IMG/VR virus record: IMGVR_UViG_2850808358_000011
Reading direction: 5' to 3' (one strand)
DNA length: 12,053 nucleotides
Source: a virus
Taxonomy: Duplodnaviria; Heunggongvirae; Uroviricota; Caudoviricetes
Made by a program: the position numbers and the translations under genes. The notes beneath the pieces were generated by a model. That model searched no databases and was not told where the DNA came from. It was given only the letters and a program-made list of their open reading frames with translations. Below, piece after piece: positions 8,008 through 8,474 of this stretch (within the stretch, counting starts at the first letter, position 1; every line of letters starts with the position of its first letter).

Positions 8008-8190
8008 ATGTCTTTCCCTTGCCCGGCCTGTGGCGCTTCATCCCGCACCCGTGGTCGTTCGTTGGAAGAACACGAACAAAACATCTACAGAACGTATTAC
8101 CAGTGCAATAATATTGAGTGTGGGGCTTGTTTTTGTACGCTTGAGTCGTTTGTACGCATTACTAAGCGCAGGAAGTCGAAAACTTCATAG
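8008..8190 (+). CDS. Ogr/Delta-family zinc-finger late-gene transcriptional activator
   Basis: 60 aa; CPACG...(N20)...YYQCNNIECGACF-T-ES matches the remembered P2 Ogr pattern (CPLCQ...YHQCQNVNCSATFITYES); strong RBS AAGAGGAG upstream. Confidence 0.75.
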   Translation: MSFPCPACGASSRTRGRSLEEHEQNIYRTYYQCNNIECGACFCTLESFVRITKRRKSKTS

Positions 8191-8240
8191 TGATTTGTAT
8201 AACACAGCCAGCGAGTGTGACCGGCTGCGTTATTGCTGTA

Positions 8241-8474
8241 TTACGTCGTGTGGTTCTGGTCATTTGCCCAGGCCCACACATCCCCCGCTACATTGCGCCC
8301 GTTGCGGTCTTCCTCCTGCGTTTCCCCGGCCTTAATTCCCTGACTGATAAACATTCTGACGCACTGGGAGTAGTTCATCTCTCTGTCCTCACATATCTGA
8401 TTTATTTTATGGTCGATTTCGTGCGGGATACGAATACAGCGTAATACGCATCGCATTTTCTTTTGTTTTTTCAT
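8241..8474 (-). CDS. Ribbon-helix-helix (Arc/CopG-like) DNA-binding protein, putative repressor
   Basis: Minus-strand ORF; start chosen at ATG 8474 (MKKQKKMRCVLRCIRIPHEIDHKINQICEDREMNYSQCVRMFISQG) with RBS GGGAGG 7 nt upstream; beta-strand then two helices is typical of RHH proteins. Confidence 0.6.
   Translation of the reverse strand: MKKQKKMRCVLRCIRIPHEIDHKINQICEDREMNYSQCVRMFISQGIKAGETQEEDRNGRNVAGDVWAWANDQNHTT

What the first reader, a model, noticed from the sequence alone, without database searches (positions are those of the whole stretch)
8008..8474. Ogr/Delta-like activator convergent with a ribbon-helix-helix protein
The 60-aa zinc-finger activator (plus strand) and the 77-aa RHH protein (minus strand) converge, and the RHH gene diverges from the capsid-module operon across the motif-rich region. 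This arrangement resembles a compact genetic switch and does not match the P4 sid-delta-psu organisation as I remember it.
Basis: partly seen in the sequence, partly recalled or inferred. Interest (0 to 1): 0.45.

Follow-up and report, generated by a model that had tools for sequence, protein, structure and literature searches.

The report
Repressor-gated late promoter of phage satellite
A phage-parasite island in E. coli has a zinc-finger activator gene facing a tiny repressor-like gene, whose likely binding sites overlie a helper-phage-style late promoter for the island's own capsid genes; I found no published description of this conserved control module.

Summary
An Ogr-type zinc-finger gene (8008-8190, +) converges on a 77-aa ORF (8241-8474, -), which diverges from the capsid module across a 164-bp region.

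The minus-strand ORF is a real gene. dN/dS is 0.17-0.26, it has a strong Shine-Dalgarno sequence, and 30-37% identical relatives keep the same synteny in E. coli, Salmonella and metagenomes. Its predicted fold is ribbon-helix-helix and resembles P22 Mnt, but no curated family threshold is reached.

The intergenic region is a helper-type bidirectional late promoter. One Ogr box (TGT-N12-AGA, 8546-8563) lies 43.5-44.5 nt from a -10 element on each strand, the geometry of P4 Psid and of phage P88 late promoters.

Eight copies of the palindrome YGTAWTACR (0.29 expected) overlie it, centred at about -76, -54, -26 and +14. Their sequence changes between lineages together with the RHH beta-strand, while the Ogr box stays constant.

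Best reading (about 0.6): the RHH protein is an autoregulated repressor gating an Ogr-activated late operon. That operon encodes a probable Sid homologue and a P2-family capsid homologue, in a distant, capsid-encoding relative of P4. Binding, timing and bistability are untested.

This copy carries single-base deletions in the primase, Sid-like and mazF genes.

The parts
7553..7561 (.). Palindrome CGTAATACG, left of cos
   Evidence: An equivalent site lies left of cos in L002 and L005.
7618..7790 (.). cos region. Its core GGTGACGGGGGAACAGCAC (7745-7763) is identical apart from one base to that of P88 and 500465-2 peduoviruses.
   Evidence: In the phages the match lies next to the portal gene or at the genome end.
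7911..7919 (.). Palindrome CGTAATACG, centred 93 nt upstream of the ogr ATG and followed by a terminator-like hairpin (7918-7933)
   Evidence: Palindromes lie 93-122 nt upstream of ogr in L002 and L010 as well.
8008..8190 (+). Ogr-type C4 zinc-finger activator gene (60 aa, CX2CX24CX4C)
   Evidence: Pfam Ogr_Delta E 1e-10. 49% identity to the Ogr-like ORF of phage P88. 37% identity to the P4 delta N-terminal domain.
8199..8233 (.). 14-bp stem-loop in the 50-bp spacer between the convergent genes. It has no T-run.
   Evidence: the minus-strand RNA folds at -21.9 kcal/mol, z -3.2. L007 has a stronger hairpin at the same place. L002 has only a 9-bp spacer.
8241..8474 (-). 77-aa RHH-like (Mnt-like) DNA-binding protein gene
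   Evidence: dN/dS 0.17-0.26. Family of 70-82 aa proteins. AF2 and Foldseek hits are almost all RHH proteins. hhalign to P22 Mnt is in register, E 6.5e-4.
8440..8448 (.). Palindrome CGTAATACG inside RHH codons 9-12 (C-V-L-R)
   Evidence: It could be an operator or just the codons of the conserved VLR motif.
8475..8638 (.). Divergent control region
8505..8534 (-). Candidate RHH promoter: -35 TTACGC (8529-8534, inside the palindrome), 18-nt spacer, -10 TTAAAT (8505-8510)
   Evidence: Read from the sequence; the -10 position was checked. In L002, L005, L010 and L007 a GATAAT or GACAAT lies exactly 43.5 nt from the box centre on this strand.
8530..8538 (.). Palindrome CGTAATACA, centred about -76 from the predicted late start site and overlapping the RHH -35
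   Evidence: It lies 56-57 nt from the RHH ATG in six loci.
8546..8563 (.). Ogr/Delta box TGT-N12-AGA (atTGT...AGAac). It is the mirror image of the P88 late-promoter box GTTCT-N12-ACAAC.
   Evidence: Relatives have the canonical TGT-N12-ACA at the same offset, 72-74 nt from the RHH ATG.
8552..8560 (.). Palindrome CGTATTACG inside the spacer of the Ogr box. It is found only in this lineage.
8580..8588 (.). Palindrome TGTATTACG, centred about -26, in the core of the late promoter
   Evidence: It lies 105-106 nt from the RHH ATG in the window, L001, L002, L005 and L010.
8598..8603 (+). -10 element AAAAAT of the late promoter. The predicted start site is near 8610.
   Evidence: it lies 43.5 nt from the box centre, as does CACAAT of P4 Psid.
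8620..8628 (.). Palindrome TGTATTACA, centred about +14 and abutting the AGGAG Shine-Dalgarno sequence
   Evidence: Sites lie 146-150 nt from the RHH ATG in L005 and L007 too.
8639..9348 (+). Sid-like coiled-coil gene. It encodes 236 aa in the intact relative L001. Here it is split by a 1-nt deletion at 8818.
9348..10619 (+). P2-family major capsid homologue with an N-terminal extension of about 119 aa. Its start overlaps the stop of the preceding gene.
   Evidence: Pfam Phage_cap_P2 E 1e-71. 35% identity to P88 gpN.

Best explanation
The pair is the late-gene control module of a distant, capsid-encoding relative of satellite P4.

The 164-bp region between the RHH gene and the Sid-like/capsid operon is a bidirectional late promoter of P2/P88 type. 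One palindromic activator box (8546-8563) sits about 55 nt upstream of two divergent start sites. Activation comes from an Ogr-type protein, either the satellite's own 60-aa Ogr or the helper's.

The 77-aa protein is a ribbon-helix-helix repressor, built like P22 Mnt: an RHH core followed by a C-terminal helix. It binds as dimers to the 9-bp palindromes YGTAWTACR. These overlap its own -35 (about -76 in late-promoter coordinates), the spacer of the activator box (-54), the late core promoter (-26) and the start of the 5' UTR (+14). It would therefore autoregulate and hold down the capsid operon even when Ogr is present. Further copies around cos and upstream of ogr may extend this control.

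Shown here: the genes, selection on them, the conserved layout, the box-to-(-10) geometry, and the enrichment, positional conservation and lineage specificity of the palindromes.

Inferred: that the RHH protein binds them, that binding represses, and that Ogr activates.

Unknown: what relieves repression, and whether RHH acts before induction (maintenance) or after it (negative feedback, since its promoter shares the Ogr box).
For: Gene reality:
- dN/dS is 0.17-0.26 in all informative pairs.
- The ORF has a strong Shine-Dalgarno sequence.
- Relatives at 30-37% identity keep R12, R15, P17, D21, I24, Y35, C38 and W69.

Fold:
- AF2 gives pLDDT 79-90 over residues 11-50, with an extended N-terminus and two helices.
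- The Foldseek PDB list is almost entirely RHH proteins: Arc, ORF56, NikA, CopG, AmrZ, MatP, TacA, SvtR, CdbA.
- hhalign to Mnt is in register over 60 columns.
- All recurring sub-threshold Pfam hits, and most NCBIfam ones, are RHH families.
- UniRef calls the Salmonella member an 'Arc family DNA-binding protein'.

Late promoter:
- A canonical TGT-N12-ACA lies 72-74 nt from the RHH ATG in L002, L005, L007 and L010.
- The box centre is 43.5 nt from an xAxxAT hexamer in the window, six relatives, P4 Psid and one P88 late promoter; the second P88 promoter is 44.5 nt.
- P88 late promoters read GTTCT-N12-ACAAC-AAAA, the mirror of the window's ATTGT-N12-AGAAC-AAAA.

Operators:
- 8 against 0.29 expected in the window, 6 against 0.44 in L002, 3 against 0.07 in L007, 4 against 0.25 in L009.
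- They sit at fixed offsets from the RHH ATG: 56, 105-106 and 146-150 nt.
- The operator class follows the RHH beta-strand. VLRxxRIP goes with YGTAWTACR, VLRAMRVP with TGTTATACA and IRRTIRIP with YGTCTGACR, with no cross-occurrence.
- The L11-to-R change accompanies an A/T-to-G/C change in the operator centre.
- The Ogr box does not vary, so the palindromes track a protein other than Ogr.
- The P88 helper genome has only one such site in 35.8 kb.
Against: - There are no binding or expression data.
- The co-variation rests on three operator classes in related elements, and other proteins also differ between those lineages.
- The palindrome at 8440 can be explained by the conserved V-L-R codons.
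- The palindrome at 8237 is absent from the close relative L001.
- In this window the box has AGA instead of ACA, and no operator overlaps a recognisable ogr core promoter. The perfect TATAAT at 7968-7973 has no -35 and lies about 55 nt from the nearest palindrome.
- The Sid-like gene of this copy is frameshifted, so the regulated operon may be dead here.
Confidence: 0.6

Rival explanations
1. Late negative-feedback variant. The RHH gene is itself an Ogr-dependent late gene, the 'P arm' of a PP/PO-like divergent pair. RHH would therefore be absent before induction and would act only afterwards, to limit or end expression of the capsid operon.
For: The RHH -10 lies 43.5 nt (44.5 in the window) from the centre of the same box that serves the capsid operon. 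This matches the two divergent late-promoter pairs of P88. L009 and L011 lack the -76 operator and its -35-like sequence.
Against: In the YGTAWTACR and TGTTATACA lineages the palindrome supplies a fair -35 (TTACAC, TTACGC or ATAACA) at 16-18 nt from the -10. P2-type late promoters normally lack a -35, so basal sigma-70 expression is plausible. This is read from the sequences.
Confidence: 0.25
2. Convergent-transcription switch. Transcription of ogr and of the RHH gene collide or form antisense pairs, so that expression of one silences the other and gives two stable states.
For: The convergent orientation is conserved in all loci. The spacer is only 9 bp in the Salmonella elements, so transcripts must overlap there. 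No T-run terminator lies in the window spacer.
Against: The spacer ranges from 9 to about 290 bp. L007 has a strong bidirectional hairpin and the window a 14-bp stem-loop between the genes. These would insulate rather than couple them. No promoter strengths are known.
Confidence: 0.15
3. The palindromes are bound by another protein (the AlpA-like regulator, the small tyrosine recombinase, or a helper or host factor). The RHH protein then has a different job, for example marking cos for packaging or acting against the helper.
For: Palindromes also flank cos (7553, 7911, and equivalents in L002 and L005). A 331-335-aa recombinase gene is conserved nearby.
Against: The sites are densest at the RHH gene's own promoter, and 9-bp palindromes suit RHH dimers. 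The operator class follows the RHH beta-strand. P88 has one site in 35.8 kb, so there is no sign of helper targeting.
Confidence: 0.12
4. The minus-strand ORF is not translated, or is an orphan antitoxin remnant.
For: RefSeq annotates it only as 'hypothetical protein'. Weak profile hits are to antitoxin-type RHH families.
Against: dN/dS is 0.17-0.26. The ORF has a strong Shine-Dalgarno sequence, full-length conservation at 30-37% identity and fixed synteny, with no adjacent toxin gene. The MazEF, RelBE-type (RelB antitoxin with ParE-family toxin) and HicAB modules of these elements lie elsewhere and are complete pairs.
Confidence: 0.03

Closest known systems
Satellite P4 late control (Psid promoter with sid-delta-psu; Delta and P2 Ogr as activators)
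   Same: Both have an Ogr/Delta-family activator and a TGT-N12-ACA-type box with identical box-to-(-10) spacing. The first gene of the operon is a roughly 240-aa probable Sid homologue. The elements also share a P2-type cos, a C4/CI antisense RNA, an AlpA-like gene and a primase-helicase.
   Different: Here the activator is a single-domain, 60-aa Ogr closer to the helper's (49%) than to Delta (37%), and it lies outside the late operon on its own. There is no psu; a P2-family capsid homologue sits in its place. Psid is unidirectional, whereas this promoter is bidirectional. P4 has no RHH gene and no palindromic operators. The primase is only distantly related to P4 alpha.
Divergent late promoters of P2-like phages (P88: terminase/portal <- box -> scaffold/capsid; sheath <- box -> tail)
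   Same: One box serves two -10 elements at +/-43.5-44.5 nt. The sequence ACAAC-AAAA-GC follows the box. A capsid-family gene lies downstream on the right arm.
   Different: The phage promoters carry no YGTAWTACR palindromes. The left arm drives terminase and portal genes rather than a repressor. The scaffold/protease gene is replaced by a Sid-like gene.
Phage P22 immI region (mnt <- Omnt/Oarc -> arc-ant)
   Same: A small RHH repressor gene is transcribed divergently from the operon it controls, with operators overlapping both promoters. The protein resembles Mnt in length and in having a C-terminal helix.
   Different: There is no detectable sequence-family membership. Here several dispersed 9-bp palindromes replace one compound operator. 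The target is an activator-dependent late promoter rather than an antirepressor promoter.
Coliphage 186 control of the late activator B by the CI repressor (my own knowledge; not checked in a paper here)
   Same: The logic is the same: a repressor layer prevents untimely action of an Ogr-family activator.
   Different: CI is a lambda-type helix-turn-helix immunity repressor acting on the B promoter. Here immunity appears to be RNA-based (C4), and the RHH sites lie mainly on the activated promoter rather than on the activator's promoter.
Capsid-forming PICIs (cf-PICI)
   Same: Both are satellites that carry their own major capsid gene.
   Different: No TerS, portal, protease or connector genes were found in the window or in any related locus. 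The capsid is P2-family, and replication and regulation are of P4 type.

Membership tests
Ogr/Delta zinc-finger activators (PF04606) | Profile score above the curated cut-off | tested here: met
   41.8 bits against 26.3, E 1e-10.
Ogr/Delta zinc-finger activators (PF04606) | Four-cysteine motif CX2CX22CX4C (PMC3931495) | tested here: met
   C5, C8, C33 and C38 give CX2C-X24-CX4C, two residues longer than canonical. This is read from the sequence and aligned with gaps to P4 Delta.
Ogr/Delta zinc-finger activators (PF04606) | A cognate TGT-N12-ACA box about 55 nt upstream of the regulated late operon | tested here: met
   The box is canonical in L002, L005, L007 and L010. The window has TGT-N12-AGA, the mirror of the P88 variant TCT-N12-ACA. 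Spacing to the -10 is the same as in P4 Psid.
Ogr/Delta zinc-finger activators (PF04606) | Activation of late promoters through RNA polymerase | not testable with these tools
   This needs reporter or in vitro transcription assays.
Ribbon-helix-helix (MetJ/Arc/CopG) superfamily | Match to a curated RHH family model above threshold | tested here: not met
   Best Pfam hit is CopG_antitoxin at 14.2 bits against 28. Best NCBIfam hit is RelB_DinJ at 17.4 against 45.65. All RHH-family hits are sub-threshold.
Ribbon-helix-helix (MetJ/Arc/CopG) superfamily | Beta-strand, helix, helix fold of about 45 residues | tested here: met
   AF2 monomers give an extended or strand segment at 7-17 and helices at 18-31 and 35-45/54, with pLDDT 79-90. 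Foldseek hits are nearly all RHH proteins, though E is 0.3-3. hhalign is in register with Mnt. This is a prediction only.
Ribbon-helix-helix (MetJ/Arc/CopG) superfamily | Dimer that binds short palindromic or repeated operators, usually at its own promoter | tested here: inconclusive
   Lineage-specific 9-bp palindromes overlap the candidate -35 of its own promoter and follow the beta-strand sequence. Binding itself was not tested.
P4-like satellites (SatelliteFinder core set: int, psu, delta, sid, alpA, ash, alpha; PMC10085698) | Integrase, AlpA-type regulator and primase-helicase | tested here: met
   AlpA is at 1112-1489 (E 4e-7). The Toprim/P-loop primase is split here and is 893 aa in L001. 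It is only distantly collinear with P4 alpha. A 399-aa arm-type integrase lies at the island end in L001, outside this window.
P4-like satellites (SatelliteFinder core set: int, psu, delta, sid, alpA, ash, alpha; PMC10085698) | psu-delta-sid operon | tested here: not met
   No Psu was found (hhalign probability 0.4%). delta/ogr lies outside the operon. Sid is only a probable distant homologue. The order is ogr, RHH, sid-like, capsid.
P4-like satellites (SatelliteFinder core set: int, psu, delta, sid, alpA, ash, alpha; PMC10085698) | Ash/epsilon | tested here: not met
   There is no Phage_ASH hit among the window ORFs. It is present in relatives L007 and L010.
P4-like satellites (SatelliteFinder core set: int, psu, delta, sid, alpA, ash, alpha; PMC10085698) | P2-type cos and CI/C4 RNA immunity. 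These are features of P4 itself, not of the marker set. | tested here: met
   The cos region is about 80% identical to P88-type phages, with a near-identical core. Rfam C4 scores 74.7 bits against 45 at 1898-1985.
Capsid-forming PICI | Full head module (capsid, protease, portal, connectors) plus TerS | tested here: not met
   Only a capsid homologue and the Sid-like gene are present in the window and in all relatives.

The most novel reading that the evidence does not exclude
These islands would be an unrecognised lineage of P2-dependent satellites that kept a phage-derived PP/PO-like late region. That region carries their own P2-family capsid gene with an N-terminal extension and a Sid-like gene. 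The lineage would then have evolved a private, fast-diverging RHH repressor. Its operators are written over a helper-mimicking, Ogr-dependent bidirectional promoter. The satellite, not the helper, would then decide when its capsid genes respond to the helper's late activator. Lineage-specific operator/repressor pairs would act as immunity groups between competing satellites.
Probability: 0.35. Interest if true: 0.72.

Novelty: new variant of a known kind. Interest (0 to 1): 0.55.

Why it matters
P4 is the textbook example of a satellite that borrows its helper's late activator logic. Here the same activator logic is combined with a dedicated repressor layer and a satellite-encoded capsid homologue.

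If confirmed, three things follow:
- It gives a simple, testable example of a parasite insulating a mimicked helper promoter from the helper's own regulator.
- It adds a small uncharacterised RHH family with a readable operator code: three operator classes matched to three beta-strand variants.
- It points to a capsid-encoding branch of P2-dependent satellites. That branch lacks the psu-delta-sid operon that current marker sets use to define P4-like satellites.

The element is not rare. It is in about 1% of complete E. coli genomes. The Salmonella RHH member P0021 is listed in 965 blocks of the assembly collection.

Tried and rejected
- Sequence searches of the PDB with the RHH profile gave only armadillo-repeat and Mdm35 artefacts.
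- hhalign to Arc and to a RelB antitoxin was insignificant.
- The search for related loci with the family alignment failed because no conserved stretch was long enough. I used the look-up of encoding contigs instead.
- An exact TGT-N12-ACA search found no box in the window's control region. The only hit, at 2862-2879, is within chance expectation. The box emerged only from comparison with relatives and with P88.
- I first read the window box as TGT-N15-ACA. The -10 register shows that the N12 reading (TGT-N12-AGA) is the homologous one.
- A box-like sequence upstream of ogr in L010 does not have the right -10 geometry, so I treat it as chance. No convincing Ogr box or sigma-70 promoter was found upstream of ogr in the window.
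- The idea that RHH targets the helper was not supported: P88 has one site in 35.8 kb.
- Pairwise BLAST of the 236-aa protein against Sid and Psu was not significant on its own.
- Six literature searches (four returned results, two failed on a short search term) and reading three satellite papers found no description of this module or of P2-capsid-encoding P4 relatives.
- Julien & Calendar 1995 is not held. The '-55' rule is therefore my own recollection, backed here only by the P4 sequence geometry.

Full report
**1. What the window is**

The window is an island of the kind found between gcd and hpt in E. coli. It is 96.6% identical over 3.7 kb to STEC388. Its order is:
- an AlpA-like gene (1112-1489);
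- a C4 antisense RNA and isrK (1791-1985; Rfam 74.7 and 52.1 bits);
- several small ORFs;
- a Toprim/P-loop primase;
- a 333-aa tyrosine recombinase;
- 13 GGTTACA repeats;
- a cos region matching P88-type peduoviruses;
- the Ogr-like gene and the 77-aa ORF;
- a roughly 240-aa coiled-coil gene and a P2-family capsid homologue;
- mazEF, then hpt.

It is therefore a P2-family-dependent satellite and a distant relative of P4. Compared with STEC388, this copy has single-base deletions in the primase (3512), the 240-aa gene (8818) and mazF (10807). These are either decay or sequencing errors.

**2. Checking the observation**

The + strand gene is an Ogr/Delta family member: Pfam 41.8 bits against a cut-off of 26.3. 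It is 49% identical to the Ogr-like ORF of phage P88 and 37% identical to the N-terminal domain of P4 Delta.

The minus-strand ORF is a real gene:
- Homologues of 70-82 aa occur in E. coli, Salmonella and metagenomes at 30-37% identity. R12, R15, P17, D21, I24, Y35, C38 and W69 are invariant.
- dN/dS is 0.17-0.26.
- In every intact locus fetched it sits between an Ogr gene (convergent) and the 240-aa/capsid pair (divergent). L005/L006 retain only a truncated Ogr ORF, and L012 is an error-ridden assembly.

The module occurs in 57-64 of 5,426 complete E. coli genomes, at more than one chromosomal site. The Salmonella RHH member P0021 is listed in 965 blocks of the assembly collection.

**3. Is it RHH?**

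No curated model reaches its threshold. However, the recurring weak hits are mostly to RHH families: CopG antitoxin, RelB, TraM, RHH_9, ORF56, CdrS and BrnA.

AF2 with a 14-sequence alignment gives pLDDT 79-90 for residues 11-50. The model has an extended N-terminus, helices at 18-31 and 35-54, and a third helix at 62-72. The Foldseek PDB list is almost wholly RHH proteins, including Arc, ORF56, NikA, CopG, AmrZ, MatP, TacA, SvtR and CdbA, though E-values are only 0.3-3.

hhalign to P22 Mnt is in register from the beta-strand (IRIPHEID against FRMPMEVRE) to the C-terminal helix (E 6.5e-4). I accept RHH at the fold level, with an Mnt-like architecture, but I do not assign it to a named family.

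**4. The control region**

Comparison of seven lineages shows two superimposed sets of signals.

*Activator box.* L002, L005, L007 and L010 have the canonical P2/P4 late-promoter box TGT-N12-ACA (PMC3931495) 72-74 nt from the RHH ATG. The window has TGT-N12-AGA at the same offset (8546-8563). L009 and L011 have TCT-N12-ACA. P88's own late promoters read GTTCT-N12-ACAAC-AAAA, so the window's ATTGT-N12-AGAAC-AAAA is its mirror image.

The box centre lies exactly 43.5 nt from an xAxxAT hexamer on the + strand in the window (AAAAAT, 8598-8603), in six relatives, in one of the two P88 late promoters examined (44.5 nt in the other) and in P4 Psid (CACAAT). On the minus strand, GATAAT, GACAAT or AAAAAT lies at 43.5 nt in five relatives, and at 44.5 nt in the window (TTAAAT) and L011. 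Both P88 divergent late-promoter pairs show the same arrangement. P4 Psid does not.

So this is a bidirectional, helper-type late promoter. The RHH gene occupies the arm where the phage has terminase and portal. The Sid-like and capsid genes occupy the arm where the phage has scaffold and capsid.

*Palindromes.* The 9-bp palindrome YGTAWTACR occurs 8 times in the window against 0.29 expected, all within 7553-8628. Relative to a predicted start site near 8610, four copies are centred at about -76, -54, -26 and +14. The -76 copy overlaps the candidate -35 of the RHH promoter, and the -54 copy lies inside the box spacer.

The offsets from the RHH ATG (56, 105-106 and 146-150 nt) recur across lineages. 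Other copies lie in RHH codons 9-12, roughly 93-122 nt upstream of ogr, and on both sides of cos.

Each lineage has its own palindrome class, enriched and confined to this region: 6 against 0.44 expected in L002, 3 against 0.07 in L007 and 4 against 0.25 in L009. The class follows the RHH beta-strand with no cross-occurrence:
- VLRxxRIP goes with YGTAWTACR;
- VLRAMRVP goes with TGTTATACA;
- IRRTIRIP goes with YGTCTGACR.

By alignment with Arc and Mnt, the varying residue 11 (L or R) is a base-contacting position. The change to Arg accompanies a change to G/C in the operator centre. That reading is an inference. The Ogr box does not vary between lineages, so the palindromes are unlikely to be Ogr sites. 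P88 has only one such palindrome in 35.8 kb.

**5. Mechanism**

Most likely (about 0.6), the RHH protein binds these palindromes as dimers. It would repress its own promoter and hold the Ogr-dependent late operon off. Ogr from the satellite or the helper would supply activation through the shared box.

What relieves repression is unknown. It is also unknown whether RHH acts before induction or as delayed feedback. The shared-box geometry argues for feedback, while the -35-like sequence inside the -76 palindrome argues for basal expression.

Control of ogr itself is unclear in this window. A perfect TATAAT (7968-7973) has no -35, and the nearest palindrome is about 55 nt upstream.

The convergent arrangement is conserved, but the spacer ranges from 9 bp to about 290 bp. 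It holds a stem-loop in the window and in L007. A collision-based switch is therefore possible but unsupported.

**6. Comparison with known systems**

The late operon's first gene is a probable distant Sid homologue. It is the same length as Sid, hhalign is collinear (E 0.0014), and 4 of 7 members match the Psu/Sid PHROG. There is no Psu.

The second gene is 35% identical to P88 gpN and has an extra N-terminal stretch of about 119 residues.

The element thus works like P4 in its activator logic but fails the psu-delta-sid test for P4-like membership. It also fails the head-module test for cf-PICIs. The repressor layout is closest in form to P22 mnt/arc.

I found no description of this module or of this satellite type in the searchable literature.

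**7. Verdict**

The finding is real and conserved. The module is best described as a new variant of Ogr/Delta-type late control, with a new RHH repressor family layered on a helper-mimicking promoter.

Interest is moderate to good (0.55). The main gap is the complete lack of binding and expression data.

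Noticed in passing
window 7127-7449: There are 13 copies of GGTTACA (1.17 expected) in both orientations, inside a 54-nt inverted repeat pair (7127-7180 and 7396-7449). The block lies between the small recombinase gene and cos. It looks like an iteron-type origin for the primase-helicase, analogous to P4 ori/crr.
   Followed up: partly
window 1778-1985: Rfam finds a C4 antisense RNA (1898-1985, 74.7 bits), isrK (1791-1872, 52.1 bits) and a sub-threshold c4-a1b1 target (1778-1830). This points to P4/P1-type RNA immunity. In STEC388 an Icd-like ORF is annotated over the same stretch.
   Followed up: no
window 9348-10619 (L001 12355-13626): The satellite has its own P2-family major capsid homologue. 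It is 35% identical to P88 gpN and has an unmatched N-terminal extension of about 119 aa. It is translationally coupled to the Sid-like gene. None of the satellite papers I could search describes a P2-dependent satellite with a capsid gene.
   Followed up: partly
window 5879-6880: A second, small tyrosine recombinase (333 aa, Int_N plus Phage_integrase domains) lies directly after the primase. It is conserved at this position in L001, L002-L006, L009 and L011 (truncated in L012), but is absent from L007 and L010. The arm-type integrase at the island's left end in L001 is a separate gene. Its role is unknown.
   Followed up: no
L014 (Logan contig SRR10822053_222774, 1357 nt): This contig joins RHH codon 39 (window about 8358, minus strand) directly to the + strand at about 7980 and continues through ogr. 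That is what an inversion of about 7980-8357 would give, and it would place ogr downstream of the RHH promoter. It is a single contig, and only a weak inverted repeat lies at the junction. It could be a real rearrangement or an artefact.
   Followed up: partly
window 3512, 8818, 10807: Compared with STEC388, single-base deletions split the primase, the Sid-like gene and mazF. This copy is either decaying or carries sequencing errors.
   Followed up: yes
window 10797-11254; L002 4050-4605; L005 8032-8570; L010 434-1026: Different toxin-antitoxin pairs occupy the end of the element beyond the capsid gene or the cos-proximal region: MazEF, a RelB antitoxin with a ParE-family toxin, and HicAB. This looks like a variable cargo hotspot, as in P4-like satellites.
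   Followed up: no
L009 and L011, compared with the window: Elements with only 30-34% identical RHH proteins, 98-aa Ogr proteins and a different operator class occupy the same chromosomal site next to hpt as the window's element. Divergent lineages therefore share one attachment site.
   Followed up: no
window 1-1128: The left end of the window does not match STEC388, which has an integrase and a 350-aa gene there. The ORFs 1-507 and 392-1042 have no Pfam hits, and 392-1042 has no PHROG hit either.
   Followed up: no
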